Positions 1 to 31,152 of a stretch of 64,000 nucleotides of DNA are shown in pieces. The DNA comes from Octopus sinensis. Lineage: Eukaryota. The stretch covers positions 34,608,464 through 34,672,463 of the forward strand of contig NC_043011.1 of assembly GCF_006345805.1 (NCBI RefSeq). Reading direction: 5' to 3'. The notes under the pieces were generated by a model. That model saw only the letters and a list, made by a program, of their open reading frames with translations. It made no database searches and was not told the origin of the DNA. The stretch's first letter is position 1; each line of letters begins with the position of its first letter. The position numbers and the translations under genes were made by a program.

Positions 1-2572
1 AGGATTTATATAAGGCCTCAACGGTTGATCATGCACCTCAGCAAGATTATATGCCAACCTTGTCAAGAGATTTTCATTTAATAAAATTGTTGCCAAGGTA
101 TAGATTTACTAATCTACTGTTTTCACATAGGGTGCCTCAAGGATTTATATAAGCCTCAACGGTTGATCATGCACCTCAGCAAGATTATATGCCAACTTGT
201 CAAGAGATTTTCATTTAATAAAATTGTTGCCAAGGTATAGATTTACTAATCTACTGTTTTCACATAGGGTGCCTCAAGGATTTATATAAGGCCTCAACGG
301 TTGATCATGCACCTCAGCAAGATTATATGCCAACCTTGTCAAGAGATTTTCATTTAATAACATTGTTGCCAAGGTATAGATTTACTAATCTACTGTTTTC
401 ACATAGGGTGCCTCAAGGATTTATATAAGGCCTCAACGGTTGATCATGCACCTCAGCAAGATTATATGCCAACTTGTCAAGAGATTTTCATTTAATAAAA
501 TTGTTGCCAAGGTATAGATTTACTAATCTACTGTTTTCACATAGGGTGCCTCAAGGATTTATATAAGGCCTCAACGGTTGATCATGCACCTCAGCAAGAT
601 TATATGCCAACTTGTCAAGAGATTTTCATTTAATAAAATTGTTGCCAAGGTATAGATTTACTAATCTACTGTTTTCACATAGGGTGCCTCAAGGATTTAT
701 AAGGCCTCAACGGTTGATCATGCACCTCAGCAAGATTATATGCCAACTTGTCAAGAGATTTTCATTTAATAAAATTGTTGCCAAGGTATAGATTTACTAA
801 TCTACTGTTTTCACATAGGGTGCCTCAAGGATTTATATAAGGCCTCAACGGTTGATCATGCACCTCAGCAAGATTATATGCCAACCTTGTCAAGAGATTT
901 TCATTTAATAAAATTGTTGCCAAGGTATAGATTTACTAATCTACTGTTTTCACATAGGGTGCCTCAAGGATTTATATAAGGCCTCAACGGTTGATCATGC
1001 ACCTCAGCAAGATTATATGCCAACTTGTCAAGAGATTTTCATTTAATAAAATTGTTGCCAAGGTATAGATTTACTAATCTACTGTTTTCACATAGGGTGC
1101 CTCAAGGATTTATATAAGGCCTCAACGGTTGATCATGCACCTCAGCAAGATTATATGCCAACCTTGTCAAGAGATTTTCATTTATAAAATTGTTGCCAAG
1201 GTATAGATTTACTAATCTACTGTTTTCACATAGGGTGCCTCAAGGATTTATATAAGGCCTCAACGGTTGATCATGCACCTCAGCAAGATTATATGCCAAC
1301 CTTGTCAAGAGATTTTCATTTAATAAAATTGTTGCCAAGGTATAGATTTACTAATCTACTGTTTTCACATAGGGTGCCTCAAGGATTTATATAAGGCCTC
1401 AACGGTTGATCATGCACCTCAGCAAGATTATATGCCAACCTTGTCAAGAGATTTTCATTTAATAAAATTGTTGCCAAGGTATAGATTTACTAATCTACTG
1501 TTTTCACATAGGGTGCCTCAAGGATTTATATAAGGCCTCAACGGTTGATCATGCACCTCAGCAAGATTATATGCCAACCTTGTCAAGAGATTTTCATTTA
1601 ATAAAATTGTTGCCAAGGTATAGATTTACTAATCTACTGTTTTCACATAGGGTGCCTCAGGGATTTATATAAGGCCTCAACGGTTGATCATGCACCTCAG
1701 CAAGATTATATGCCAACCTTGTCAAGAGATTTTCATTTAATAAAATTGTTGCCAAGGTATAGATTTACTAATCTACTGTTTTCACATAGGGTGCCTCAAG
1801 GATTTATATAAGGCCTCAACGGTTGATCATGCACCTCAGCAAGATTATATGCCAACCTTGTCAAGAGATTTTCATTTAATAAAATTGTTGCCAAGGTATA
1901 GATTTACTAATCTACTGTTTTCACATAGGGTGCCTCAAGGATTTATATAAGGCCTCAACGGTTGATCATGCACCTCAGCAAGATTATATGCCAACCTTGT
2001 CAAGAGATTTTCATTTAATAAAATTGTTGTCAAGGTATAGATTTACTAATCTACTGTTTTCACATAGGGTGCCTCAAGGATTTATATAAGGCCTCAACGG
2101 TTGATCATGCACCTCAGCAAGACTATATGCCAACCTTGTCAAGATATTTTCATTTAATAAAATTGCTGTCAAGGTATAGATTTACTAATCTACTGTTTTC
2201 ACATAGGGTGCCTCAAGAATTTATATAAGGCCTCAACGGTTTATCATGCACCTCAGCAAGACTATATGCCAACCTTGTCAAGATATTTTCATTTAATAAA
2301 ATTGTTGCCAAGGTATAGATTTACTAATCTACTGTTTTCACATAGGGTGCCTCAAGGATTTATATAAGGCCTCAACGGTTGATCATGCACCTCAGCAAGA
2401 TTATATGCCGACCTTGTCAAGATATTTTCATTTAATAAAATTGCTGTCAAGGTATAGATTTACTAATCTACTGTTTTCACATAGGGTGCCTCAAGGATTT
2501 ATATAAGGCCTCAACGGTTTATCATGCACCTCAGCAAGATTATATGCCGACCTTGTCAAGAGATTTTCATTA
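1..2572. repeat. 139-bp tandem repeat array (~18.5 copies visible, runs off the left edge)
   Basis: Unit aggatttatataaggcctcaacggttgatcatgcacctcagc...ttttcacatagggtgcctca recurs at 1, 140, 277, 416 and onward. Copies are near identical, with occasional 1-2 bp indels and more substitutions in the last few copies. Confidence 0.98.
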
Positions 2573-2756
2573 ATGTTACATTCGAATCATCCTTCAGTAC
2601 GTCAGCGACGGTTATTCAATGAAAAATCCTCCGATTTAGGCCGATTCATCAGCTTCATTGCAGGCATTCCTGTCGCAATGCAAAGAATTAGAACATCGAA
2701 AGGGATACTCGATCTATTTTTAATACGTTATTTACTGTATAGCGTTTGTTTTTCTT

Positions 2757-3790
2757 ACGAGAGTTGGGGAAAACGTCCATTGGTTGGCGAAAATACTCTC
2801 ATTGAATGTGAGCAAATGTGATGTGTTTTTCAACATACTCCTCCTTGCAGTCCACACAATCTGTACTGCAGTGCTTGAATCCCCTGATGAGAAATCTTGC
2901 ATCCTGTTGCTCCCAAAATGTCATCAGCAACAGATATAACGTCATCATTACTACGATACTGATTCACAGGCAAGTTTTTTTTCACGTTGGGACACAGGTG
3001 AAATAAGGAAAATAAAGAGGCTGATCAAGCAGTTTGAACTCAGAGTTGCAAGTAAGGACTCGTGTGGTGGAGTATTGTCCCGTTTAAACAGTTCTCCTGG
3101 GCATTTGGTCTTGATGGCTTTCCGTAACTGCCTCAGAAAGTTGGCATATTACTCTCCATTGATGGTGTGGCCCTTTAGCATATGGTCAATAATCACAATA
3201 CCTTTTTTATCCCGAAAAACTGAGACCATCACCTTCCCTGCAGATAAAACGACTTGGCATTTTTGGAGCAAGTGATGATGGGTATTCCACTGAATAGATT
3301 GTCATTTTGAATCTGGCTCAAAATGATGAAGCCAACACTCATCCTAACTTCGGAAACGTTCAAGGAAACCAGCTGTTTCTGCCTCAAACAATGTCGGATT
3401 TTTCCGTGGAACCCACGGAGCAGAAACCTTCATTATACAAAGTTCATTCTCAATTGTTCCACAGGTTATGCTAATAGCATTGGCTATTTGATTTATAGGC
3501 AATCGCCAGTGATCCATTGCAATGTGGTGAACATGATCAATGCTTTCCTTGGTGGTGGTGGTGGTGGTGGTAGTGGCAGGGGGTGCGATAACTCCAGACC
3601 TTGGGTCATTTTCAAGGCTCTCCCTTTCCCTTCTAAATTCAGCTGCCCCTTTTTACGCTTTCGAGCGTTATCGCCTAATGTAGCAATCATATTAACATAA
3701 AAATCGTTGGCGGGAGTGGGGTTAAACCCCTTACCTGCTGGTACTTGATAACACCACGATATCAAATTTTATCTGTTTTTTAAAAGAGGT
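2757..3790 (-). mobile_element. Degenerate mariner-like DNA transposon remnant
   Basis: Begins tacgagagttgg, similar to the termini of the mariner at 5603-6815. The interior resembles the reverse complement of transposase sequence, with no intact ORF. Confidence 0.55.
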
Positions 3791-3879
3791 CGCTACTAAT
3801 TACTTTTGAAGTCTGCTTTGGAAAGTCTGGTGTCAGTTTTCCCGGAAAGAAATAATGCAGTTATTTATAAGAAGAATTT

Positions 3880-4105
3880 GAGGCGTCGAGCTTGCAGAAT
3901 CGTTAGCACGCGGGACGAAATGCTTAGCGGTATTTCGCCCGTTGTTACGTTCTGGGTTCAAATTCCGCCGAGGGCAATTTTGCCTTTTATCTTTTCGGTG
4001 TTGATAAATTAAGTACCAGCTGATCACTGAAGGGAGGGGGTTCAATGTAATCGACTAGTCCCCTCCCCACAAAATTCAAGCCTTGTGCCTGTAGTAGAAA
4101 GGATT
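3880..4105 (+). mobile_element. tRNA-derived SINE (family 1)
   Basis: gcagaatcgttagcacg...gttcaaattccgccgag...ttgcctttt...aagtaccag motif, repeated many times in the window. Confidence 0.8.
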
Positions 4106-5602
4106 AATAAGATGAGTTGAAATTCGTGTATGCAAGATTTAACAGCTCTAGCATCACACCATCATAGTCATCGTATGAACATTTCAACCACGCCTCGCAA
4201 CTTGGAGATCTCAAGTTCAAATCCTGCTACTTTGTTCTCCACTGATTAGATAAAACTCATGTTGGTGGTTTATAAAGATAGCAAGTCAAACATTTAATGT
4301 CAATATTAAAAATGTTCTGCTTATGAAAGCTTTACTAATCAAACCAGAATTCAGGCACTCGCGCGCGTAGAGAAATTCAAATCCCCGTGGCCGCCATGAA
4401 AGCTTACAGGTTTCTTGCACAACATAACACCTAGCGCAATACAGCATAGTAAATTTACTATTTGCTTAATTTTGAGTCTGTTGAGCAAGAGGACCACTCC
4501 AGGTTTAGAAAAGTCGGGAATCTGGAAAGAATTTGTGACCAGAGTTTTCGGAAAATCGATGTTGTACCTGGATAAAAGTGTTAGCGACTCGATGTGTCCT
4601 TGCTTATCTTTCAAATATTCTATGAATTCACGAATCTCTTTTATTAGTTTCAGGTATAGCTCTGCGGCCATGCTGGGCGACCACTTTGGAGGGTTTAGTC
4701 ATTCAAATCGACACAGTGCATATTTTTATGTGTTGTATTTATTCGGGTTCCTTTTGCCGAACTGTGGGACGTAAACTAAGCATTCTTTGAGTTTGGGTTT
4801 GTTTTTCACCGCTTTGATAACCGGTGAAACAGAAACATGGGATGAAACGAACACATACTGATAATATCCGTGCGTGCATATGTACATACATACGTACGAA
4901 CTAACCAATGACGGATTTACGCACAGTTTCTGTCAATCTAATTCCATATACAGTAGAACTCACTCGCCCAAGTTAACACGCAGTCTTTTACTATTAATTG
5001 TTGGAACATGGGAAAATACATCCGCGTGTGTTATTTAAGGACAATGTCCTATGACACTCTGGAAACAATTCTGTGTTGAAAGAATTGCCTGTGGGTTGCG
5101 AAAGCTTTATATGAAATATTTTATAACCCTATAAATTGTTACTAGTTGCAGTCGTAAGCAACAGAAGCCGTAATAACTAGCATGTTTTCTCTATACAGAC
5201 AAATTTCTAAAGTGTAATATAAAATTAGTGATATACGGTATTACTATAATATATAATTATTTATGTCTAACCAACACCATACATGTATCAACAGGTGTGC
5301 AAACACCTTATATCTATATATATTATCGTTGTAAATAGATTAATAGGAATCGATTGAATTGGTTTCAGTTACGTGTTGGAATTTCAACAGTGACTAAGGA
5401 CTCGATTTGACTGTCTAGAAACATACTGTTTGTAAATTCACTACTTTCTACTAAGAGCTTAATTAAAGTAAATCGACCAGTTTACATATTTTACATTCTG
5501 GGAAGTTATTTCGATTACCAAGTTACTAAGTTAACAGATTTTCATTTCGATGTTATACTGTATTATAGTATGTACGTATAAATGTTTAACCAATATTATA
5601 TA

Positions 5603-6815
5603 CGAGGGTGGGCTGAAAGGTTCACAGGCTAACTATGAAGGAGTGATGCTAGAGCTGTCAAATCTCATATGCAGTAATTTTAACTCCTCTTGTTAATAAC
5701 TGCATTGTTTCTTTCCAGGTAAACTGACATCTGGCTGTTCAGAGAGGACTTCAAAACTAACTAATGACGACTTTTCTTGAAAATGGACAAAATTTGACAT
5801 CGTGGTGCTTGCAGAAAACGGGTTTAGCCCTCAAAGATATCTGTGCTGACATGGTTGCTACACTAGGGCATTACTCTCCAGCTATATCGACCGTGCAAAA
5901 GTGGGCCGGTGAATTTGGGAGGAGAACAAAATCTTGAAAATGACCCTCGATCTGGGCGTCCTGCAACTCCCATCACAGAAGAAAACATTCACCGGGTTCA
6001 CCACATGGTAATGGATTATAGGTGACTAACTATAAATCAAATAGCATATCCTGTAATAGAGTTGAGAATATCCTGCACAATGAAGTTGGTATGACGATAG
6101 TTTCTGCTCAGTGGGCGCCACATTTGATATCTGATTAGAATCCTACCGTGCTGATTTACATCACGGGAAAATCTGACATTGTTTGAGGCAGATCCAGCTG
6201 GTCTCCTTGAACGTTTTCTGTCCCAGGATGACTTGGTTTCAACGCTTTGAGCCAGAAACAGAGACAACCCATACAGTGAAAACACCTCTCCTCACCTGCT
6301 CCAAAGATGGTCAAGGTCATTTTATTTGCAGAGAAGATGATGGCCTCAGTTTTTCGGGATGTAAGAGGTGTTGTGTTTATTGACTATCTTCAAAAATGCC
6401 ACATCATCAATGTAGAGTACTATGCCAACTTGTTGAGGCAGTTACGAAATACTATCAAGACCAAACGCCCAGGAAAACTGTTTCATCAGGACAATGCTCC
6501 AGTACATAAGTCCTTACTTCTAATGGCTACTGTGAGTGACTGGGTTAAAACTGGTTGATCAGTCACCCTATTCTCCTTATTTGGCCCCCATCTGACGATC
6601 ACCTGTTTCCCAACGTGAAAAATCACCTGGCTGGGAACCAGTATCGTAGTAGCATCTGGTGTTGATGACTTTTTGAACAACAATGGGATCCAAGCACTGC
6701 AATACAAATGGAATTGTGTGGGCCACAAGGGGGACTATGTTGAAAAATAAACCTCATTTGGTCATACACCATGAAAGTATTTTGGTCAGCCTATGGGCAT
6801 TTTCGCCAACTCTCG
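5603..6815 (+). mobile_element. Full-length but decayed mariner transposon
   Basis: TA-flanked imperfect TIRs (ta|cgagggtgggctgaaaggttcacaggct ... agcctatgggcattttcgccaactctcg|ta). Transposase fragments include MMASVFRDVRGVVFIDYLQK, YYANLLRQLR and LFHQDNAPVH, with frameshifts and stops. Confidence 0.9.
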
Positions 6816-7537
6816 TATGTATGGACAGATGCAAGAGCTTGCAGGCAGAAAAAGGAAGCTCAACCGATGAAAGACATTTCAACATAGAATTGAAACCATT
6901 CCGAAGGGTATACCAGCGTAGACCCAGATGACTCATAAAAACGTAGTTACAGTGCTATGATTTTGATGAGTAGTCTGCTCCCCGAAGGTTGTTCTGGGGC
7001 TAAAGGAAAACAAAAATGCCTGCTTTGTTCATACAGAAGATGCTGGTTGTATTTATTTAGGGCCATTTTCATTGTAAGTTCAAATGCGACCGAAGTCGAT
7101 TTCATTCTTTCATTCTTCCACAGTTGAGTAAAACAATTAGTATCTGTTTATTGGTTTCGATAACCTATCGCTGATTAGGTTAGGTTGAGTAATCAATATC
7201 ATCCCTGAAAATAACTTCGTCCCTGCCACTCAGAGTGAAAATTGAGCTTAACCGACGTCATGTGACTATCGGAGACTCCATCAGCAATCCACCGGACATC
7301 CCATACACTCAACTAACTGATACACAAGAAAGTAAATGAAAAAACAAATAAATAGATAGAAACCTACAAATCAAGTAACAAATGATTTATTGTCATTTAA
7401 AGCACAAATAAATATGTAAATATACAAATAAACAAATAAATGAAATTTACATCTTTTTGCTTCGTAATACAGTTTATTTCATTTTACGGTAGACATTTTG
7501 GATAACAGAATTTAGAGTGATGTTGTTTTCGTTAGTT

Positions 7538-10705
<3,168 letters not shown>

Positions 10706-10728
10706 GTCTGAAACGTGAAAATAATCAC

Positions 10729-10770
10729 GATAGATAGATATATAGATAAATAGATAGACAGGTAGGTAGG

Positions 10771-10815
<45 letters not shown>

Positions 10816-10854
10816 TGATAGATAGACAGACAGATAGATAGATAAAATATAGAC

Positions 10855-10914
<60 letters not shown>

Positions 10915-10949
10915 GGGTAAACAGACAGACTGATAAACAGATAGATAAT

Positions 10950-11021
<72 letters not shown>

Positions 11022-11088
11022 TAGATAGACAGACAGACAGATAGATTGATAGATAAATAGATAGATAGATGGATGGATAGATAGATAT
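10729..11088. repeat. (GATA/GACA)n microsatellite in intron 1 of gene A (continues at 12206-12268)
   Basis: Directly visible. Confidence 0.95.
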
Positions 11089-12204
11089 GTTTCTTTATTA
11101 GCCACACAGGGCTGCACACAGATAGAACAAATTACAAGGTAGAGCTTTTCTTTTGAAGGTATTAAAAAAAAAAAATAAATAAAAAAAAAAAAAAGGAAGG
11201 GGGAGGTTCGATCAAAAGGGATCGTAAAAGGAGAGAAAGAGGACAAAAATAAGGGGGTTTAAAAAAAAAAATTAAAAAAAAAGGGGGGGAGAGGAAAAAA
11301 AATGATCAATAGGGATCGTTATCACAGAAATGTCAATATGAAGTGTAAAGGGGAGGACAGGTGAGGTTTACCCGTGGAAAGAAAAGCCTGCGGAAAAGAC
11401 CACGGTAACCTCGGTCAATGAAGTCACATTTTATATTTCTTTTTTTTTTTTTTTTTTGCAAATAAGCAACTCTCTGTTTTCGATTTCTGGGTTCATAGGA
11501 CTATGCTCAAGGTGGCTTCGTCATTCATACGTGCCATTCTTGCTACATTCACCCATCTTTTTTTAAAACATTCGCTAGACAAAACTTGCCTCTCTACTCT
11601 CACTTTCCTTTTCAAGTGGTACTTGAAGAAGTTGATGAGAGATTGACCAGAGAGGAAAGTGTTTGTCTCCAATCCTTTCAGACGCGTCCACAGATACATT
11701 CTTTCGCCATAGCCACAAGGATGATGAAAATAGCTCTTCCTTCCCGTTTGAAGGAAGGAGGCGTGACAATATTGACGATAGACTCAGCTGATAAACCGAC
11801 TCGTCCCACACGTGACAGCAGTTGTTCGACATAAGCCCACAGGTCGGAAATTGTTGGACACTGAACGAGTGCGTGCAGAACGGTTTCGTCGCTCTGACCG
11901 CATCTCGGGCAGGTCGGCCCCGTGTTTCTCGAGCCGTGTCTGTAGAGCTTATCCCGAACGGGTAGCGCTTCTCGGTAGCACTGCCAGGCCAGGGATCTCT
12001 GGAAGTTGTCCATGGGCCCTGGCCCGAAAGTCGTCCCGAACAGGCGGGTCAGGTACTCCTCGTCGACGTCCAGGTTCGCCCCGAGCTCGTCGTCGTACCT
12101 CCCCTCCACTAAACCCCTATAGAATGCTTTGGTTGTGTTGAAGTCACTTAAGGTCGACCCAGGACGGCAGAGTTGCTTGAGAGCAACGCGACACTCGCGG
12201 TGCC

Positions 12205-12205
<1 letters not shown>
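11089..12205 (-). mobile_element. 5'-truncated L1/Tx1-like LINE 3' end, inserted in the GATA microsatellite
   Basis: ORF 11678-12109 has the zf-RVT-type motif CPRCGQSDETVLHALVQCP. A 3'UTR and AATAAA lie near 11095, with GATA repeats on both sides. Confidence 0.8.
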
Positions 12206-12269
<64 letters not shown>

Positions 12270-12279
12270 AAGAAATGTA

Positions 12280-13516
12280 CAGAGTGTCCCGAAATTAAGG
12301 CAAATTTCAGGCTTTAATAACTAGCAATACATGTGATAAAATATGAAAATTATACATCATAAAAGCTTAGTGTATCTTCTTTTTGTTTCGGACTAAATAA
12401 ATTCAGATTTATAAATTTGATAATGGCTATAGACGGAAATACAATCATAACCTTCCACAAAGAAGGCGAAAGTAATACAGTAATAGCAAAAAACGCTTAA
12501 AATTAACCGAACAGCAAACATTCTGGAAAATTGTCAAGAAATTTCAAGACACTGGTTTCACCGCTGATCGACCTGGACGTGGCCGAAAAAGCTTATTTAA
12601 AGTACCAGAGAAAAGATACGCCGAGATCCTCGTAGTTCTGGCAGAAAACTGGCTGCCACAACAAAAATAAGCCGAACATCGATGCATCGAATGCTGAGGG
12701 AGGATCTCAGGACACACCCCTGCAAGACGATCCGTCGTCATGAGCTCACGCATGTTTATAAGGCCATGTGACTGGAGAGAAGTCATCTTATCCTACGCCA
12801 GATTGCTGAAGGCATGCTGCCCAACCTGGCGTTCACTGATGAAAATAAATTTGACATGGAACAGATAGTAAACCACCAGAATAACCGACTTTGGAGTGCA
12901 TCTGGCTCCGTCGAGGTGAGACTCATAAATCGACGTCAAAATACACAGTCAGGTATGGTTTGGGCGGCTGTGACATCCACTGGAAGGTCTCCCTCGGGTG
13001 TTAAGATTAACACCCAGCAATACATTAGCGACATTCTGGAAGCTGAACTGCTGCCTTGGGTGAATGAGCACTGTGAAGAAGCACCTTGGAGTCTCCAACA
13101 GGACTCGGCACCATCCTACAGCTCCCAACTGACACAACACTGGATTCAGAAAAAACATTCCGTCGTTCATAGGCTCTCAAGAAGCCCCAATCTCAACCCG
13201 CTGGATTTTTCTGTTTGGTCCATTTTGGAGACGAGGATCTCGAGCACTCCTCATGCTTCGCTCGACTCTCTGAAGGCAAAACTGCGCCAAGAACGGGTTT
13301 CGGTTCCGCAAGAACAGCTGCATACTACGTGTGAAGCAGTCGCTCCTAGACTTAAGGCTGTGATTCGAAACAGAAGTGGTTATATCGAATAAATATAGTA
13401 GAATCCTAATTGTGTTTCTTTTACCATTGCATTGCAATGCTCGGACACGAAATATAACAATATTTTGCTTTGGAAAAATTGAAAATAGTTGGTTGCCTTG
13501 AATTTAGGACACCCTG
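12280..13516 (+). mobile_element. Tc1/mariner-superfamily transposon (maT/DD37D-like), decayed
   Basis: TA-flanked TIRs ta|cagagtgtcccgaaattaaggcaa ... ttgccttgaatttaggacaccctg|ta. ORF 12814-13392 contains FTDENKF, MVWAAVT, LQQDSAP and SPNLNPLDFSVW. Confidence 0.9.
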
Positions 13517-13617
13517 TAGATGGATTCTTGTTAGAGAATTAGAATATGAACTGCTAATTATGAGACTGAGAGAAGAAATTAGACAATTCCTTCCAATGCA
13601 CTAATAAAAATACATAC

Positions 13618-13669
13618 TGAATTGTGCATGAGATGTGTGTTAAAAAAACAGAACAAGCCGTTTTATATA
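13618..13669 (-). promoter_or_regulatory. Gene A TATA box (13662-13669) and short non-coding first exon ending at donor 13618
   Basis: Minus strand ttacTATATAAAacgg...acatctcatgcacaattca|gtatgt, with the same layout as 31098-31152. Confidence 0.7.
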
Positions 13670-14344
13670 GTAATCCATGACTAACAGCTGTGTCGTTCTC
13701 ATCTAATTGAGAAACCATTGAAATTGACTGAAGAGAAGCAGAAAATGCTGATATAATCGCTTTAGAGATAAGTGGTGAGGAACATATTTACAAAATTGTC
13801 TCGAAAGCAACAATTTTGCTGTGAGTTATAAATATTTAGTTACGCAGAATAAAAAAAAATGTTTGACCTCATCAACTTTGTTTTTCACATACAGTTTATC
13901 AAAGACTTATATAATATCACAACGGTCGAAGTTGACCATGCACCTCAGCAGGCTTGTATGCAAACCTGAGTGAGATATTTTCAATAAGACTAGATGTCTT
14001 ATTCAATCACTCCACTCTACGATAACCACAACGGTTATGGAAGGTAAAAGCCACCTATCGATCGACTTCATTACAGGGATTTCTGTCATATTGCATAGAA
14101 AAGGAAGAAACCACGGCTTACTGCTCGATCCTCTCTCATTTTTGCGAATCCTTTGCTCAGGTACACTACATATTCATTGACCCTCAAATGAATAAAGGTA
14201 GCAGGATTGTATGTTACAGTGCATTTCTATATATTAAAACGGTAACCTTTATCGTATTTAACATAAAATAGTGGTAAAAAACATCAATAGATACAATATA
14301 CAAGATTCTTTTTTATCTTGCTAAAACATATCCAGTATTTTGAA

Positions 14345-16280
14345 GGTTAAATGACTGGTAGCAGCAGTTATGCTGGATTTAGATGATGAGATAACGCTGT
14401 TATCTGTAGAAGTAATGGAAGAAAGAAACTGGACGGGTCAGACAGTAAAAATGTTGATCCAGGCGGAGCCACTGACTCTGGAAAAAAATTCCATAGGTCA
14501 TTGAGGTGGTAGAGGCTAAATTAGTCGTGATGGTAGAGGGGAGGAAGCTCCGCTGTTTCAAGTGTAGATTGAAAGGCTATGTTAGATCAGATTGTAAGAC
14601 CGCACAGGAAGAAACAGAAGAGGAAGAAAACAAAGAAAACAAAGAGGAAAGAAAAAGAAAAAGACAGAGTCGAAGAATAACAAAGAAGGGGAGGGTTGGG
14701 ATATTGTTAAAAACAAAAGAAAAATAAAACTAACCTCCCCAGAAAAAAAGAACTATAAAAAAGGCGAAAAGCTAGGGAAAAAAAGAAAAACAAAAGAAAG
14801 AATTATACATGGCGGTAAGGGTTTCTAATATGAGGCTAGTACACCGCCTATAGTGCATAAAAAACATAAAAAAGATAGAAAATGAAGATGTGAGAGAAGG
14901 ACACGAGATTTACAACGTGAATCAAAAAACATATATTTTTGTGAACGAATATAGGGAGGACGCAGGCCCATTGAGATGGGATATATCACCCCAAATCTAT
15001 GAATGCATACATAATCCGACTTCACGAGCCAGAGAAAAAGAAGAGGAGGCGGATTCGTGCGTGGCCTCACGTCGAGCTGGAAACAAGGACGTTTCCTAAA
15101 TGACGTTAGGTCAAGAAAGTTAGATGTTATTGTGGCTACTGAAACCTGGTTAAAAGGGCCAAGAGGTCTGCTTCCGCTCCTGGACAGTTACGAGAAATAT
15201 ATTTCTCCAGGCCGGCCTGCGGGTCGGGGTGAGGTGTTGGTCCTACTAAAAAGAAACAGGGTTTCAGAGAAAAAGTTGATTTTTTTCTGATCCAGAAGGT
15301 AGGCTGGTCGTCTTAGATTTGACTTTCATTTGTGGTAGGAAAACCAGACTGGTGGCAATTTACGCCTCCAATTCTGGTCAGACTGAAAACCTAGAGAAGT
15401 TTCGTGGTACATCGCATTCGTTAGTTTTGTTAGGAGAATTTAACACTATTCACGATGCACGCGTGGATTGTGTTAGCTCGAGTACGAATAGGAGACCAAA
15501 TCCTGGCTTCCGGGATCTACTAAGTCGCTTTCAGCTAGTAAATCCATACAGACTAGAATTCCAAAAACGCTCCATTATGGACGTGGTTAAGTGGTGATGG
15601 GTCTTCAAGGTCGTATATAGATAGGATCCTAATTAGAAAAATAAAGACATGGCTAAGTGTCCACAGTTTCACCGGGTCAGCTACAGTGATCACAAGTTTG
15701 TCACTTGTAAGCTGAACTTAGATAAGTTACATAGCAAAGGCTCTGGCTACTGGAAACTCAATAAGTTCCTTTTGGCGATTGAGGAGTACAGGAACCAGAT
15801 TAAATTATTGATACAGAGAGCATTGACAGGTACCATCATTAACCATCATGGTGGTGTGCCCTAAAAAGAGCCATTAAATTTGAGTCTATTAGATATAACA
15901 TAGGTTTAGTGGCTAGAGAACATAGGAGGGAAGTAGAACAAGCTAAGACCCTAGAGGAAGCCATGGTGACTGGTAGTGTATCTCAGGTAAAGGCAGAGAG
16001 ACTGGAATTAAAGCAGCGCCTCGAAGCCAAACACAAGGGGTGTATTGTCAGGACTAGACTTCGAGCAATGGGTTGCGAGGTGATCAGAGCCGCTGGTGGA
16101 CTCGAATGGTGGAAGCCCAACGTAGAAATTATTCCACTATTCGATCTTTGGAGAATCCACAAGGTGAGTTGGTAAACGAACCCGAGGAGATGTGTAAGAC
16201 TTATCAAGAGCACTTTGCCCATCGTGAGGAGCGATGGACCGCATAGTAGGTTGGACCTTACGGAGTTCCTCGTCGGGCTG
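14345..16280 (+). mobile_element. Degenerate L1/Tx1-like LINE 5' half (ORF1 zinc knuckle + APE endonuclease)
   Basis: CFKCRLKGYVRSDC knuckle-like motif. DVIVATETW, VLLGEFN and YSDHKFV...GYWKLN endonuclease motifs appear in broken frames. Confidence 0.8.
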
Positions 16281-17318: not shown

Positions 17319-17433
17319 ATTTGACAGGCTGCGTCGCACAAGAACGTCCAGAACTTTTCAACGTTGGCTTCACAAGCTTTCACACAGTCGCCACTCAGAT
17401 TCAGACCTTTGATGTGCTGAATTACATCGTTGA
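17319..17433 (-). CDS. Paralog B: orphan mature-peptide exon (NDVIQHIKGLNLSGDCVKACEANVEKFWTFLCDAACQ)
   Basis: tttctcttacag| acceptor and |gtaagtc donor intact. 115-nt open frame, same phases as genes A and C, 24/37 aa identical to gene C. I found no signal or terminal exon of its own. Confidence 0.75.
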
Positions 17434-24449: not shown

Positions 24450-24607
24450 TTTGGCGGGCTTCTTACAGTTTGCCCAGGACTGTAGTAAAAAACATAATAT
24501 ATAAATAAAAAAATGAAATCCATGTTCTTTTTGTGTGTCTGATAAAGTTTATTTCATTTTTATGTTACATATGTAAAAGAGAATTTAGAATGAAAGTGGT
24601 CCAGTTG

Positions 24608-24632
24608 TTAGTCGCCGCTTCCTCCCAAGACA
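24608..24632 (-). CDS. Gene C terminal coding exon ((I)VLGGSGD*)
   Basis: Strong polypyrimidine acceptor ttttttttcag|t, in-frame stop, and downstream AATAAA. Confidence 0.8.
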
Positions 24633-25229
24633 CTGAAAAAAAAATCAAAGAAAAGAAATTTAGTTTATCAATTATTTTTACATTTATTATTGTACGTTCA
24701 AACGGTACTTACTCTACCCACCCCTAAACGATGAAATGCAACAGTGACAGCAGAAGAATTTGAACTCAGAATATAAAGCTAGAAACAAATACCGTGAAAC
24801 GTTTTGTTCGACGTGCTAACAGTTTCACCAGCTTGCCGCCGCGCAGCCTCCGGCCTAGTAAATGCCGTTTTGTTCTCGTAACTTTTAACCCCTAACTCCC
24901 ATAGCAATACCTGCACGTATAATCCTTTCTATTATAAGTAAAAAGCCTGAAATTTTAAGGGAGAGAGTTAGTTGATGACATCGACCCTCAGGGCTCAACT
25001 AGTACTTATTTCATCAACTTCGAAAGGACGAGAGGCAAAGTCGACCTCGGCGGAATTTGAACTCAAGAAGTGAGAAACGAACGAAATGCTGCTAAGCATT
25101 TTCTCCGGCTGCTAATGTTTCTGTCCGCTCGCAATCTTACCAGCAGCTAGAATAATTGCATTTTGTAATTAAATGCTTCTTTTTATAGTAAAGGACTATT
25201 GCATAATGTGAATAACTCATATCTATCTA

Positions 25230-25284
<55 letters not shown>

Positions 25285-27486
25285 CTGAAGTTGTCTGTGT
25301 ATGGCAGGTTTGGTAGCCTTCAACTAACACTATCTCCTCCGAGACCCTGCGGCGCAAGTTGAGCAAAATTGAGAGTATGATAGAAGAAGGCTTGCTCTTC
25401 ATTCCGTAGAAGATAAAATTCAAATCGGACCATGTTAAGACCAAAAATTATTTACATCAAAAAGGTGTTTTTTTTCTATGAAAATCCCTATTTTTTACGA
25501 TTTTTTGACTGCTGTGTCGCCATCTTTCAGTGTATTTCAAAATTTTTACTTTTCCAAAATTCCAATTCTAAAGGATCGAAACAAACCCAAGCAACGCTGG
25601 TCGATACTGCTAGTAAGTGATAATTTAATATTAAGTTAGATATGTATTTTTCATAGACATTAATTGAAATATTTTGTTAGATTCTCCAAAATAGCTTGTT
25701 GAATTTAAAGTATGAAGGACTAAAGATTAGGTGTGTGTGTGTGTGTGTGTGTGTTTGTGTGTGTGTACTTGAATTCTGATTGGATGAATACAGCTTTAAT
25801 AAAAGAACATTTCTAATATCCACATTAAATGTTTGACTCGCTGTTTTCATAAACTTCCAACATGTAATTTATCTAATAACTTGAAACCCAAGCAAGCAGG
25901 ATTTGAACTTGAAATCTCCAAGTTACTGAAACCTATACCATAAATGGTGTATCAGAATTATTTACCCATTAAAACATTGGATTTTCTTTCGCAAAGCAAT
26001 ATAAGTTCTTGTGTATTGTATCGATTGATTCTCGCACTTCTATTCTGGCAAATACTGAAGAGGCTATATTTGCTGACGAAGTCTGAGTAATATTATTTTC
26101 TACTCTAAGTGCAAGGCCCGAAATTTGGTGGGAGGGGGCCAGTCGATTAGAACGACCCTAGTATGCAACTGGTACTTAATTTATCGATCCCGAAAGGATG
26201 AAAGGCAAAGTCGACCTCGGAGGGAAGTCTGAGTAATATTGAAACATATTTTGCGTTGTCTCTCGTACTTAGACAAACCAATATCTAGTTTTTAAGTTGC
26301 AATATAAATATTTCTAATTTGGCTTCCCGTTATGTACCTGCATTAAATATAATACACAGATTCTATTTTAAACAAATACTTCTTCCCTTGCATATATCGA
26401 ATTTTTATTTAGCCATCAAGCTGATTGCGACATCAATGTTTTCCTGTATCAGTGACAACGGATTTTGTCACGCCTGCCAGTGATTGCTTGCTACAGATGA
26501 AAGCCAAAAATATAAAAATGCGCATTGAGCAGTGTGCCACCACTGCTGTTGCACGATTTTCGTCAGTTTTTGAGACATTTTTGGGGATTAATTAAGTTTG
26601 TACGTCTATAAGAGATATTGTTTTGGGACAAATACCGTAGTTAATTTGGCTTTCGTGATATATCTGCGTTTAATAAGATACACAATTGCTATTTCGAATT
26701 AGCGTTATTCAATGTGTCTTTCATTGTATTATTTATTTTCCCCTGTTTCTTTTTTAATCATTCAACTAAAACTGAAGGGAAAGGCGCTGTGCCCAATATA
26801 TTTTTCAAGGCTCTGGAAAACGGTGGAAAGAAAAGAGAATGTTACCACCAGATCAGAGACCCAAGCAAGACACTGCAATAGATTAAGTTTCTGCTTAAAG
26901 CATTCGGATGATGACGCTAAAGCCGAAAGAAAGGAATAAGTTGACCATCCTAGACAAGTAACATCCTCTACCGTGGTTTTCCACACAGTCTCTGACAACT
27001 AAATTTTACTAATAATATCTTGGTAGATCGGAAGATATGCGGGTGTGAGTCGCAAATAACTTAATTAATTGAAATAGTAAAACTAATGAGAAAAAATAGC
27101 AATTACCATTAATGAAATTTATTCTCAAGAAGAACAAGGGCGGTAATCCCCGAAATTTTGTTCAACCAAAAGTTGAATTTAGATGGAAACAGAAACAAGC
27201 AGTGAGAGGAGTGAATCTAATCTCTGGCAACTGCATTGACAACTCCAGGTATGTTTCAGTCTCAATGGACCTCCTCAGCAAAATATAGAACATTCTATAA
27301 TTGCCAGGATGTCAGGACGACTAACAAAAGTAGTTTGGTTGTTTCTTTGTGTATACGTGCGTATAGGCGTATGTGTGCGTTAATCAATGTATGTATATGT
27401 GTGATGTGTGTGCGAGTGTGTATGCGTGGTGTGTATGTATGCATGTGTGTATGCACGTGTATGTATGCATGCTTGTGTGTGTATAC

Positions 27487-27530
<44 letters not shown>

Positions 27531-28834
27531 TGCGTGCGTGTGTGTGTGTGTATACGCTGTACAGTAACTTACATTTTACAGGCTGCGCCGCACAAGAAAG
27601 TCCAGAACTTTTTAACGTTAGCTTCACAAGCACTCACACAGCCGTCGTCCAAATTCAGATTTCTGATGTGGTTAACTATATCAGTTACTGTAAAAGAAAT
27701 GAGAAGAATTGCTGTACAATGATGTTTGTAATGTTAAAGTTTAACAAGTACAAGATGGCCACTCATTCTGATGGGAGAATGCAGTCGGGGAGACGAAAAC
27801 GACAGACTGGAGTCATTAAGATTCTAACACAGAACTTAGCAGATGTAATTATGCACCGCAAGGGAATTTTCCGTTGCTCAACTGCTTATCCTTTAAATGT
27901 GATATCTACTTCTCTTCTCAGGTGCATTATTTCTCTGTTGAGTTGGTCATAAGTGCTTTTATTCTATCCTCATTCCCAGAACTGCTGCTCTCTAGAGCTA
28001 ACCACCCACGTCTTGTTTTCTTCTTCTCAACTATAACATTCAGTTCTTTAAGCTTTCTATCAATCAGCATCTTTTGAATATATAGGTTCCTTCTTTACTT
28101 TTTCTTTGTAGTCCCTTAAGCCACAGTGGCTTCAAACCCTGTTTGGGACTAATCGTATAAAATAGATAGAAAAACAGATAAATAAAAACCCATTGCCTTT
28201 AACAACGTTTATAGCGATTTCTAAAAATGCAGCCCCTTTTAATAGTGTTTGTAACGTTCAGCTATACACAGGAAATGGCTTTAAACTGCATCCGGTAGTG
28301 GGCCCCTAGTTCGGGAGTTCCAGGGTTCTGAGGACTGTAGAACTACCTTTTACTCACCATTGTTCCCAGATCTATTCTCACCCGAAGTAGTAGCACCCGT
28401 CAGGCCCCCAGATATGGATTAAATAGTATGTAATCACCCGAGCCAGGATTCACTGAAATCGTGGGATGCAGCATGGTGTCTGTGAACTATTTCGGCAAAT
28501 GAATATAGTAAATCAGTGACGAATATGTTTATATATATGTGTGTGTGTGTGTGTGTATGTATATATCGCCATGTTGATTCGCTAGCCTCTGCACGCATTT
28601 TTTTTCTCTCTCCTTCTTTCTGTGTTTTTTCTCTGTGTATCTTTCTGTTGAAGAGCGTAGGCTCGAAACGTTAAAGACTTGTTTTATTTATATTTCCTGA
28701 GCGCCATACTAATACAATTGTTTGTTTGTATTCCACCTGCCTTCGTCTTTTGTTTATTTCCGTAAACCTGCCTTCGTCTTTTTGTCTATTTTCATAAAGC
28801 TTCCCGTTATATATATATATATATATATAAATAA

Positions 28835-28925
<91 letters not shown>

Positions 28926-30148
28926 CAAGTATGTATGTGTGTGTGTGGTTTTGTGCCTGTTTGTTCCAGCTACCACCTGAAACTGGTGTTGGCTTCTTTA
29001 TTTCCCCGTAACCTAGTGGTTCGGCAAAAGGAGCCGCTAGAATAAGTTCCAAACTTTAAAAAAATAATTACCGGGGTCTGAGTTGTTCGACTAAACCTTT
29101 TCAGGCGGTACCCCAGCATGGGCGCAGTCCGTTGGCCAAAACTGGTAAAAAGTAACAGATGAAAGGCAATGGTTCCACACACGCCGTCACGTGCGAGTGC
29201 CCATGCACAACAAAGCCCCCATCACGGGCACTAAGCACCTACTACTGCAGAGCCGCTCTAACCACCCACGCAGCCTTCCTTTCTATGCAGTCCTCAACCG
29301 GCATTTTAGAGGCTTTTTATCTTTTACCTTTTACTCGCTTCGGTCATTGGATTACGACCATGCTTCGGATATTTAACCGAACAAATCGACTCCAATCACA
29401 TATTTTAAAATGTGGCACTTATTCTATCGATCTATTTTACCGAACTGCTAAGTTACGTGGACGTAAACAAACCAACACAGATTGTCAAGCAGTGGGGAGA
29501 CAGATGCAAGACACAAAGGCGTAAAACACACACACACACATATGTGTGAGTATGTGCGTGTGTGTGTGTGTGTATGTGTGTGTATGTGTACGACGGATTT
29601 CAACGTAGTTTCCCTTTACCAGATCCCCTCACAACGCTTTGCCCGGCCCGGGAGTATAGTAAAAGAAACTAAACCAAGGAGTCACGCATTGAGATTGAAC
29701 CTGAAACCACATGTTTGGGAGACAAACTTTTTACCACACAGCCATCCATAAAAATTCATTATATATTTAACGTTATGTTGGAACTGCTCAGAGGGCGTTA
29801 GTGACTGTTACAAGATCAAAAAAGAGATGTTTGAGTAAAAATGGCAGATGAGCACCGTTTTGGGACAAATTGGGAAAAAGAGCGAAAAAAAATGAAGAAT
29901 CCGTAATCTTAAGAAGCGCAGAAGACATTGGATTACATGATTCTGAAGGAAAGGTAATCGCTTTGAGTGTTGACCTGGGGTTAAACAACAATAATATCAT
30001 ACAATCATATCTCTCATTCTAATGCACAAAGAGTCTTTATACAGTTCTGTTTTTACTTACTTGAAAGTCTTTTGTCGACCTCCTCATCATAGAGGCTGGC
30101 AGCGAAGACGATGGGAAGCAATACTAAAAACAAAAGGACGACCTTCAT
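24608..30148 (-). CDS. Gene C: secreted 4-Cys peptide precursor, join(30061-30148, 27573-27687, 24608-24632), 75 aa MKVVLLFLVLLPIVFAASLYDEEVDKRLSITDIVNHIRNLNLDDGCVSACEANVKKFWTFLCGAACKIVLGGSGD
   Basis: GT-AG junctions with consistent phases (88+115+25=228 nt). Signal peptide, acidic propiece and KR dibasic site. AATAAA at 24548-24553 (minus). Confidence 0.9.
25270..25614 (+). mobile_element. Non-autonomous Helitron-like element
   Basis: Starts tatataaagctgaagttgtc and ends with a degenerate hairpin plus gatactgctagt. An inverted copy lies at ~44655-45008. Confidence 0.6.
27573..27687 (-). CDS. Gene C mature-peptide exon
   Basis: tttcttttacag| and |gtaagtt sites, 115-nt open frame, C-x3-C-x11-C-x3-C. 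Confidence 0.9.
28638..28680 (+). ncRNA. Minimal hammerhead ribozyme-like motif in a Penelope-type terminal fragment (~28565-28810)
   Basis: tcttt-CTGTTGA-a-gagc gtag gctc-GAAACGTT-aaaga. Stems pair. One core base deviates from CUGANGA. Confidence 0.55.
30061..30148 (-). CDS. Gene C signal/propeptide exon
   Basis: ttttcag|acATG start and |gtaagta donor. Encodes MKVVLLFLVLLPIVFAASLYDEEVDKRLS. Confidence 0.9.
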
Positions 30149-30186
30149 GTCTGAAAAATAAAAATAAACGACAGACAGACAAATAT

Positions 30187-30252
<66 letters not shown>

Positions 30253-30333
30253 GGATGGATGGATGGATGGATGGCTAGATAGCGATAGAGAGAGAGAGGT
30301 AGATGCTTGTTGTGTGTGTTTATGTATGTAGAC

Positions 30334-30413
<80 letters not shown>

Positions 30414-30444
30414 TGCCCGGAGAAGACGACCGAACCCGATCGCT

Positions 30445-30479
<35 letters not shown>

Positions 30480-30499
30480 ATGAACCTGCAGAAGGATCA
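30414..30499 (+). pseudogene. 18S rRNA 3'-terminal fragment (dispersed pseudogene), fused to a SINE
   Basis: tagaggaagtaaaagtcgtaacaaggtttccgtagatgaacctgcagaaggatca matches the conserved eukaryotic 18S 3' end, with 2 substitutions in the terminal helix. Confidence 0.9.
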
Positions 30500-30505
30500 A
30501 AGAAA

Positions 30506-30904
30506 GGCGGCGAGCTGGCAGAAACGTTAAGCACGCCGGTCGAAATGCGTAGCCGTATTTCGTCTGCCATTACGTTCTGAGTTCAAATTCCGCCGAGGTC
30601 GACTTTGTCTTTCATCCTTTCGGGGTCGATAAATTAAGTACCAGTTACGCACTGGAGTCGATGTAATCGACTTAATCCGTTCGTCTGTCTTTGTTTGTTC
30701 GCTCTGTGTTTAGCCCCTTGTGGGCAGTAAAGAAATAGGTATTTCGTCTGCCGCTACGTTCCGAGTTCAAATTCCGCCGAGGTCGACTTTGCCTTACATC
30801 CTTTCGGGGTCGATTAAATAAGTACCAGTTATAATCGATTTAAACCGTTTGTTTGTCCTGGTTTGTCCCCTCTGTTTCTTGTTCCTTGTGGGCAGTAAAG
30901 AAAT

Positions 30905-30905
<1 letters not shown>
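30506..30905 (+). mobile_element. Family 1 SINE dimer within GATA microsatellite (intron 1 of gene C)
   Basis: ggcggcgagctggcagaaacgtt head followed by two core units, with GATA arrays at 30185-30412 and 30906-30984. Confidence 0.85.
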
Positions 30906-30984
<79 letters not shown>

Positions 30985-31097
30985 AAAGAAGAAAGGATTC
31001 TTGTTAGAGTATTTAAGCAGACACGAAGTTCAAAAGTTGAGGTCGAGTAAGGAAATTAGGAGAAAATTCATCCAAATATACCGGGAACAAAACTTAC

Positions 31098-31152
31098 TGA
31101 AATGTGCACAAGATGTGGTTTGTCAAAAGCAGGATATAAGGCCCTTTATATA
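31098..31152 (-). promoter_or_regulatory. Gene C TATA box (31145-31152) and short non-coding first exon ending at donor 31098
   Basis: Minus strand ttacTATATAAAggg...acatcttgtgcacatttca|gtaagt, homologous to 13618-13669. Confidence 0.72.

What the first reader, a model, noticed from the sequence alone, without database searches (positions are those of the whole stretch)
1..2730. The 139-bp satellite is an in-situ amplification of a peptide-gene upstream region, implying another paralog left of the window
A diverged single copy of the repeat unit lies at ~13878-13987 (ttttcacata...acttatataa...caacggtcgaagttgaccatgcacctcagcaggcttgtatgcaaacc), about 210 bp upstream of the gene A TATA box. Homology continues beyond the array: 2604-2712 (acggttattc...cttcattgcaggcattcctgtcgcaatgcaaagaa) matches 14031-14132 (acggttatgg...cttcattacagggatttctgtcatattgcatagaa). 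Inference: the array sits in the promoter-proximal region of a further paralog whose TATA box and exons lie left of position 1. The 18 or more copies could multiply cis-regulatory sites. The array is highly homogeneous with more diverged edge copies, which suggests a young array.
Basis: partly seen in the sequence, partly recalled or inferred. Interest (0 to 1): 0.72.

Follow-up and report, generated by a model that had tools for sequence, protein, structure and literature searches.

The report
Satellite born from peptide-gene upstream DNA
A 139-base stretch just upstream of a spliced octopus gene for a small, predicted secreted peptide is repeated head-to-tail 49 times at this one place in the genome (likely about 6 to 40 times in other samples); it likely grew from the gene's own upstream DNA, and it likely does little to the gene's activity, which has not been measured.

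Summary
The prediction holds. Left of the window lies an intact paralog ('gene C'): TATA box, 4 exons, a 76-aa open frame and a GT-AG splice joint in 4 of 4 laid runs. It is one of 8 clustered genes for an unnamed mollusc 4-cysteine peptide family. The array has 49 units (6.79 kb), starts 350 bp upstream of C's TATA box, and was found nowhere else in the genome.

Three parts of the reading need correcting:
(1) The unit is a hybrid across the joint of an older ~400-bp block duplication, not a simple copy of gene A's -210 segment. That segment lies 1.2 kb or more upstream in other paralogs.
(2) The array is not newborn. It is tandem in more diverged haplotypes, at roughly 6-45 copies by contig depth, and its edge units keep ancestral bases.
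(3) Nothing supports multiplied regulatory sites. The segment is no better conserved than its neighbours, and paralog B is spliced without it.

Verdict: a single-locus promoter-proximal VNTR of a known kind, with an unusually traceable origin. An effect on expression is untested. The scan had not reported this locus or family before.

The parts
1..2568 (.). Distal 18.6 units of the 139-bp array. The whole array has 49 units and starts left of the window at L011:5782 (window -4218; G000:C15:34604245-34611031; window coordinate = L011 position minus 10000). Also left of the window, so not listable as parts: the first copy of the duplicated block (end of F plus Q, L011:5597-5807, whose last ~22 bp form the start of the unit) and gene C on the minus strand (TATA L011:5426-5432, 350 bp from the array; exon-1 donor at 5380; exon 2 4800-4889; exon 3 3908-4022 with C-x3-C-x11-C-x3-C; exon 4 coding part 1105-1132)
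   Evidence: array; block; gene C:
2569..2692 (.). Unique right flank: segment F of the second copy of the duplicated upstream block, homologous to 13988-14100 and to paralogs D, E, H
2750..3880 (-). Decayed transposon-like fragment (mariner-like motifs) standing where the second copy of segment Q would be
   Evidence: the family label rests on short recalled motifs only
4195..4525 (.). Ancestral upstream sequence (segment R) resumes, collinear with paralog D
13868..13987 (.). Single unamplified copy of segment U upstream of gene A
13988..14352 (.). Segments F, Q and the start of R upstream of gene A, in the ancestral order
7530..13667 (-). Gene A: TATA 13661-13667, exon 2 10618-10707, exon 3 9301-9409, exon 4 from 7553; 70-aa open frame
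24600..31140 (-). Gene B: exon 2 30061-30150, exon 3 27573-27687, exon 4 from 24632; no U segment found upstream; spliced form seen in run X16
17319..17433 (-). Lone exon-3 copy, with no exon 2 or exon 4 found beside it

Best explanation
The array is a single-locus, 49-unit large minisatellite beginning 350 bp upstream of the TATA box of an intact, spliced peptide gene (gene C); it likely arose in place from that gene's own upstream DNA in two steps and is likely close to neutral for the gene's expression. Step 1 (inferred from segment order): a ~400-bp upstream block U-F-Q was duplicated in tandem, creating a Q|U joint. The first copy then lost U, most of F and the 1 kb in front of them. The second copy lost Q where a transposon-like fragment now sits. 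Step 2 (inferred): a 139-bp piece spanning the Q|U joint, whose two ends share a short ATT(T)AAT microhomology, was duplicated by slippage or misaligned repair. Step 3 (inferred): unequal exchange within the array changes copy number and sweeps new variants through the interior, leaving ancestral bases at both edges. Shown: the gene, its splicing, the segment order, the single locus, the edge-to-interior gradient and the tandem joint in other samples. Rough: copy numbers in other samples. Untested: any effect on transcription.
For: Gene C; joint 4022-4800 with GT-AG ends in 4 of 4 runs, exon-3 pieces with 0-2 other letters. Segment order, as offsets in paralog D: gene C reads 1-157, then 1475-1680, then 1278-1384 repeated, on to 1501, then 1778-2244; gene A reads 1-256, then 1270-1747. 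The two F-end copies in C match at only 24 of 32, so the block duplication is old. The unit start aligns to the Q end of A and D, the rest to the U start of D and H. The outermost unit keeps TGAC and TTTGTTTTTCAC as in A and D, and C18T occurs in 9 units, all at the edges. Single locus: a 16-mer gives 51 matches, 48 in the array, 1 upstream of A and 2 elsewhere, against 2 for the reversed control; both outliers lack further homology. Tandem 'goes back 142' joint in 3 of 4 DNA runs; the fourth (X2) has very deep unit contigs but no listed joint. Near-neutrality: U is 59-75% identical between paralogs, against 60-73% for Q (D-E 99%), 68-80% for M and 66-78% for the core promoter. No U was found upstream of B or F, and B's exon 3-4 junction is in run X16 (table 7).
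Against: Neutrality is argued only indirectly: no expression was measured against copy number. The array starts only 350 bp from the TATA box, and 46 of 49 units carry a TATA-box match on the gene's sense strand, so an effect is plausible. A and C share an A/T-rich insertion in U that D, E and H lack, so step 1 could also be ectopic exchange between paralogs rather than simple tandem duplication. Many interior differences are single-base losses in homopolymers (one C lost in 16 of 49 units) and may be long-read errors. Contig depth is not a copy number, as the tool warns.
Confidence: 0.66

Rival explanations
1. The array multiplies an activator site and raises or tunes gene C expression with copy number.
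For: Promoter-proximal position. A core ATGCACCTC-like word is recognisable in A, C, D and E. Copy number seems to vary. Precedents exist, such as a 61-bp repeat in the human reduced folate carrier promoter (PMC3899988, passages).
Against: U is no better conserved than neighbouring DNA. It lies 1.2-2.4 kb away in D, E and H. It was not found at B or F, and B is spliced.
Confidence: 0.13
2. The long array dampens gene C, through local heterochromatin or through 46 sense-strand TATA-like decoys and upstream starts that interfere with the real promoter.
For: 46 of 49 units match TATAWAWR on the gene's strand. Copy-number-dependent suppression of neighbouring genes by TCAST1 satellite is described (PMC5615363, passages).
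Against: Gene C is spliced in both laid runs labelled as the same organism as the best DNA holder (X16, X19), so it is not silenced. No RNA was laid on the array. TATA-like words are common in DNA of 36% GC.
Confidence: 0.13
3. The array is a spliced micro-exon series or part of an antisense transcript on the + strand.
For: By eye each unit has donor-like, branch-like and acceptor-like words on the + strand. Such arrays were noted elsewhere in this genome (unchecked notes).
Against: The implied exon is 106 nt, not a multiple of three, and the within-unit intron only 33 nt (counted by eye). The longest stop-free run over three units is 68 codons. Rfam gives 0 matches at E<=1.
Confidence: 0.04
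4. The unit is a piece of a dispersed transposon, SINE or retrozyme that inserted here.
For: The genome search tool warns that it skips very common words. The window is rich in SINE-like repeats.
Against: The exact-pattern scan shows no excess outside the cluster. Both flanks continue directly into paralog-homologous DNA. No Rfam match; folding z -1.55.
Confidence: 0.02
5. The 49-copy length is an assembly artefact.
For: Interior homopolymer indels look like raw long-read errors.
Against: Unit-specific substitution pairs recur in an ordered way (C80T with C118A in 3 units). Short-read contigs of other samples show the tandem joint, and one run (X2) has a depth ratio of about 30-45.
Confidence: 0.02

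Closest known systems
[quoted passage not shown]
   Same: Head-to-tail units over 10 nt, a single locus, just upstream of one gene, apparently variable in copy number.
   Different: The unit is longer (139 bp) and the array 6.8 kb. No link to expression or factor binding is shown. The unit is a hybrid across an older duplication joint, traceable through unamplified copies in four paralogs.
First stage of satellite birth: de novo duplication at one place, then local amplification (Ruiz-Ruano model as reviewed in PMC5615363, passages)
   Same: A short tandem from unique sequence at one location, amplified locally, probably by unequal crossing-over.
   Different: No spread to other loci was found. 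The source is gene-upstream DNA, not an rDNA spacer or transposon as in the examples I read there.
Drosophila Rsp and 1.688 satellite loci and the accretion model (PMC5411766, passages)
   Same: Homogeneous centre, more diverged ends, a transposon-like fragment next to one end.
   Different: Much smaller, inside a gene cluster, and not known to be heterochromatic.
For the peptide: framework-XIV CS-alpha/alpha conotoxins vil14a/flf14 (PMC4278219, passages)
   Same: Four cysteines; the model predicts two helices over the two C-x3-C pairs.
   Different: No sequence or fold match was found. The mature part has an extra predicted N-terminal helix. Disulphide pairing and activity are unknown. It is a resemblance only; equal Cys spacing is recalled, not from a call.

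Membership tests
Single-locus VNTR/minisatellite | Head-to-tail units longer than 10 nt | tested here: met
   139-bp period, 49.0 copies; size definition from PMC3899988
Single-locus VNTR/minisatellite | Confined to one locus | tested here: met
   the DNA searches carry the tool's caveat on common words; the exact-pattern scan has its own reversed control
Single-locus VNTR/minisatellite | Copy number differs between individuals | tested here: inconclusive
   Unit-to-flank contig depth ratios: X7 5.9, X4 4.8-7.7, X3 16-26, X2 30-45, against 49 in the assembly. Direction is clear, but contig depth is not a copy number
Satellite under concerted evolution | Homogenised centre with diverged, more ancestral ends | tested here: met
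Satellite under concerted evolution | Heterochromatic, cytologically visible block | not testable with these tools
   No chromatin or FISH data
Regulatory promoter VNTR (INS-VNTR type) | Lies in the promoter-proximal region of an expressed gene | tested here: met
   350 bp from the TATA box; gene spliced in 4 of 4 runs guessed to be RNA
Regulatory promoter VNTR (INS-VNTR type) | Copy number changes expression, or the unit binds a factor | not testable with these tools
   No paired DNA and RNA of one animal; contig depth cannot rank genes
Transposon-, SINE- or retrozyme-derived satellite | Unit homologous to a dispersed element | tested here: not met
Transposon-, SINE- or retrozyme-derived satellite | Ribozyme or structured RNA in the unit | tested here: not met
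   0 Rfam matches at E<=1 over 2000-2800; folding z -1.55
CS-alpha/alpha framework-XIV peptides (for the gene product) | Four cysteines in two C-x3-C pairs | tested here: met
   C46, C50, C62, C66 invariant in 17 of 17 aligned rows; P0004 and P0012, which lack part of the Cys pattern, and P0005 and P0016 were left out of that alignment
CS-alpha/alpha framework-XIV peptides (for the gene product) | Helix-loop-helix fold with I-IV, II-III disulphides | tested here: inconclusive
   Model of P0001 has helices 46-53 and 56-72, mean pLDDT 69.5, pTM 0.40; pairing not examined; fold searches gave nothing clear
Eclosion hormone (PF04736) | Six conserved cysteines (recalled) and a Pfam match | tested here: not met
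   Four invariant Cys only; no PF04736 hit in 15 proteins scanned; the Atlas score of 0.79 is at chance level

The most novel reading that the evidence does not exclude
A promoter-born satellite acts as a heritable dial on one member of an undescribed mollusc family of 4-cysteine secreted peptides. Its roughly 8-fold change in copy number among closely related octopuses, with a sense-strand TATA-like site in nearly every unit, shifts gene C's share of the family's output, most likely downward as the array grows. The unamplified paralogs would serve as built-in controls.
Probability: 0.2. Interest if true: 0.7.

Novelty: new member of a known kind. Interest (0 to 1): 0.42.

Why it matters
The origin of most satellites cannot be traced because the source sequence is gone. 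Here four paralogs keep unamplified copies, so the block duplication, the new joint, the microhomology-bounded first repeat and the later homogenisation can each be read, and the array has not spread. If copy number does vary several-fold 350 bp from a TATA box, it is a clean test of whether such arrays change expression in a cephalopod. The locus also exposes an unnamed peptide family (octopuses, argonaut, two bivalves), one member of which was detected in an octopus salivary-gland proteome. Without an expression effect it is an ordinary, well-resolved VNTR.

Tried and rejected
Expression depth as evidence: rejected. In one search the contigs matching gene C exon 3 have depth about 2300-2700 (X9), 813 (X20), 71 (X16) and 11.8 (X19), while contigs of other paralogs' exon 2 reach hundreds to thousands in every run. 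Gene C looks scarce in the two runs labelled organism A. The tool says contig depth cannot rank genes, tissues are not given, array length in those animals is unknown, and X2 (labelled B) also has a deep array. I did not use this as evidence.

RNA runs: no RNA holder was on record; RNA is the tool's guess for the four runs laid.

Eclosion-hormone lead from the Atlas (score 0.79): at chance level; papers (passages; listing) gave no octopus link.

Fold searches: Foldseek 0 matches; VIA best Z 4.2, rmsd 3.5, 64 aligned, none at Z>=5. Uninformative for a small low-confidence helical model.

Pfam: no family at its cut-off for 15 proteins; the weak Conotoxin hit (E 0.19) covers residues 1-51 of one protein.

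Bacterial promoter scan: not applicable to an animal.

Other family loci (C15:34.21-34.31 Mb, C8:18.725-18.795 Mb): no U-F-Q segment and no 139-bp array.

The F-end comparison was out of register and was redone. The unit split merged three units and was redone. The script did not join gene D's exons, so open frames are shown for 7 of 8 genes.

Skin-mucus proteome supplement: 0 of 6 accessions found (PMC10138644, supplement search only).

Literature: ten searches found no description of this array or a name for this peptide family. Subscription papers are not covered, and the octopus genome paper I asked for was not held.

Full report
The observation. The array is real: period 139, 18.6 copies in the window, 98% matches. 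A genome search placed the window at G000:C15:34608464-34672463 and showed the array running on to the left. Negative coordinates below count left from the window's first base (L011 position minus 10000). On the joined stretch the array spans -4218 to about 2570, with 49.0 copies. The single copy at 13882-13987 is 71-73% identical to the units. The match continues through the right flank to 2687 against 14100 (149/230, E 2e-20), far above 300 shuffles (56 against a maximum of 17).

The predicted paralog exists. In the 10 kb left of the window, the minus strand carries a TATA box at -4574 to -4568, an exon-1 donor, a 90-nt exon 2, a 115-nt exon 3 and an exon 4, giving a 76-aa open frame. Four runs that the tool guesses to be RNA all join exon 2 to exon 3 across a 777-nt GT-AG intron, with 0-2 other letters in the exon-3 pieces; two also show exon-4 letters. 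Gene A's exons find eight genes between -61 kb and +31 kb (A, B, C, D, E, F on the minus strand; G, H on the plus strand) and one lone exon 3. Open frames are shown for 7 of the 8. More family members lie about 330 kb further left and on contig C8.

The gene family. The closest protein is an uncharacterised 75-aa protein of Octopus bimaculoides (83% over 89% of the query). A profile search found 12 representatives. Those with names are from Octopus, Argonauta, Mya and Solemya, and all are hypothetical or uncharacterised. Members have a hydrophobic N-terminus, an acidic piece that mostly ends in KR (gene A has MR) and four cysteines invariant in the 17 rows aligned. No Pfam family passed its cut-off and no fold match was clear. 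One member (A0A0L8GWF6, P0010) was identified by a single peptide in an O. vulgaris posterior salivary gland proteome (PMC7693380, supplement search and passages). Its best match here is the separate locus at C15:34.28 Mb, not gene C. A secreted defence or venom-type role is therefore a lead only.

Where the unit comes from. I use paralog D as the reference order: promoter P (1-256), middle M (to 1270), U (1278-1384), F (to about 1500), Q (to 1680), R beyond. Gene A reads P then U-F-Q-R, having lost M. That is why U sits 216 bp from its TATA box, against 1238, 1224 and 2376 bp in D, E and H. Gene C reads P, then 1475-1680, then U repeated, then F to 1501, then a transposon-like fragment, then R from 1778. 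The simplest history is a tandem duplication of U-F-Q followed by two deletions. The overlap (end of F) is present twice in C and matches at only 24 of 32, so this step is old. The repeat unit begins with about 22 bp that align to the Q end of A and D and continues with U. It therefore spans a joint that none of the other paralogs showed. The left edge starts ATTTAAT and the right edge ends before ATTAAT, a microhomology that could seed the first 139-bp duplication. The mechanism is inferred.

How the array evolves. Of 49 units, 27 have no substitution. The ten outermost average 3.8 substitutions and the other 39 average 0.46. C18T occurs in nine units, all at the two edges. The outermost unit keeps bases found in A, D and H, so the interior type is the derived one. 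This is the pattern described for Drosophila satellites under unequal exchange (PMC5411766, passages). It shows active turnover rather than recent birth.

Other samples. On a stretch holding the promoter and one unit, 3 of 4 DNA runs gave a contig that goes back 142 letters from the unit's end to its start, that is, a tandem array. Their flank contigs differ from the assembly by 3 letters (X3) or by 9-10 letters plus a 26-bp piece the assembly lacks (X4, X7). Unit-to-single-copy depth ratios are about 6 (X7), 5-8 (X4), 16-26 (X3) and 30-45 (X2). The tool warns that contig depth is no copy number, so these are rough. They suggest that the array predates the split of these haplotypes and is longer in the samples closest to the assembly.

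Not a dispersed element. DNA searches with the unit, with gene A's upstream copy and with the flank hit only this cluster (the tool skips common words). An exact 16-mer gave 51 matches: 48 in the array, 1 at gene A and 2 elsewhere, the same as the reversed control. The two outliers have no further homology. Rfam found nothing, which answers the retrozyme lead from earlier scan notes.

Does it regulate gene C? I could not measure this. Against a special role: U is 59-75% identical between paralogs, no more than Q, M or the core promoter. It was not found at B or F and only weakly at G, and B is spliced in run X16. For a possible effect: the array starts 350 bp from the TATA box, and 46 of 49 units carry a TATA-box match on the sense strand. 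Promoter repeats can act through binding-site number, spacing or chromatin (PMC3899988, passages), and satellites can suppress neighbours in proportion to copy number (PMC5615363, passages). I put near-neutral at 0.66, activating at 0.13 and dampening at 0.13.

Verdict. The origin is more complex than stated, the array is older than stated, and the regulatory idea is unsupported so far. It is a new member of a known kind, a single-locus promoter-proximal VNTR or first-stage satellite, valuable for its traceable origin and as a testable case. Ten literature searches found no description of it, and the scan's own notes hold nothing on this place or protein.

Noticed in passing
window 17319-17433 (-): Lone exon 3 of the peptide family with an open frame and splice sites but no exon 2 or 4 beside it. 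It lies downstream of gene B on the same strand, so it may be a remnant of a ninth gene or an alternative exon.
   Followed up: partly
L014-L017 (window -61650 to -39400): Genes G and H are a recent duplicate pair on the opposite strand, differing by one residue. H has a 1.3-kb mariner-like insertion with 39-bp inverted ends about 160 bp upstream of its TATA box.
   Followed up: partly
L012 and L014 (window -15940 to -15765 and -31437 to -31262): Segment Q is 99% identical between paralogs D and E while the adjacent M is 80% and U 75%, which suggests gene conversion between upstream regions.
   Followed up: no
L017 and L015 (window -63425 to -63522 and -46721 to -46816): A weak second U-like copy (E about 3e-6 to 6e-6) lies about 435 bp nearer the promoter in H, and one in G, hinting at an older duplication of similar block size.
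   Followed up: no
L011:5442-5450 and 5590: Run X7's haplotype has six substitutions and an insertion 10-18 bp upstream of gene C's TATA box. X4 and X7 carry 26 bp of promoter-like sequence that the assembly lacks.
   Followed up: partly
L011:4800-4891: One contig of run X16 has another paralog's exon 2 (12 differences, as for D or F), then 181 other letters, then gene C exons 2-3. D and F lie downstream of C, so this is probably an assembly chimera.
   Followed up: partly
window 2756-3878 and 5682-6817: Two decayed transposon-like fragments, 67% identical, in inverted orientation to each other.
   Followed up: partly
window 25731-26066: Inverted homolog (72%) of paralog D's far-upstream segment inside gene B's last intron.
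   Followed up: no
window 11400-12200 and 14350-16280: Long stretches that read by eye like decayed LINE elements, one in gene A's first intron and one just upstream of gene A. Not tested.
   Followed up: no
L026 (window 66994-67396): Seven 58-bp tandem copies, 97% matching, of what looks like a SINE head just right of the window.
   Followed up: no
G000:C15:34.22-34.28 Mb and G000:C8:18.74-18.77 Mb: Further members of the peptide family in two other clusters, without the U-F-Q upstream segment.
   Followed up: partly
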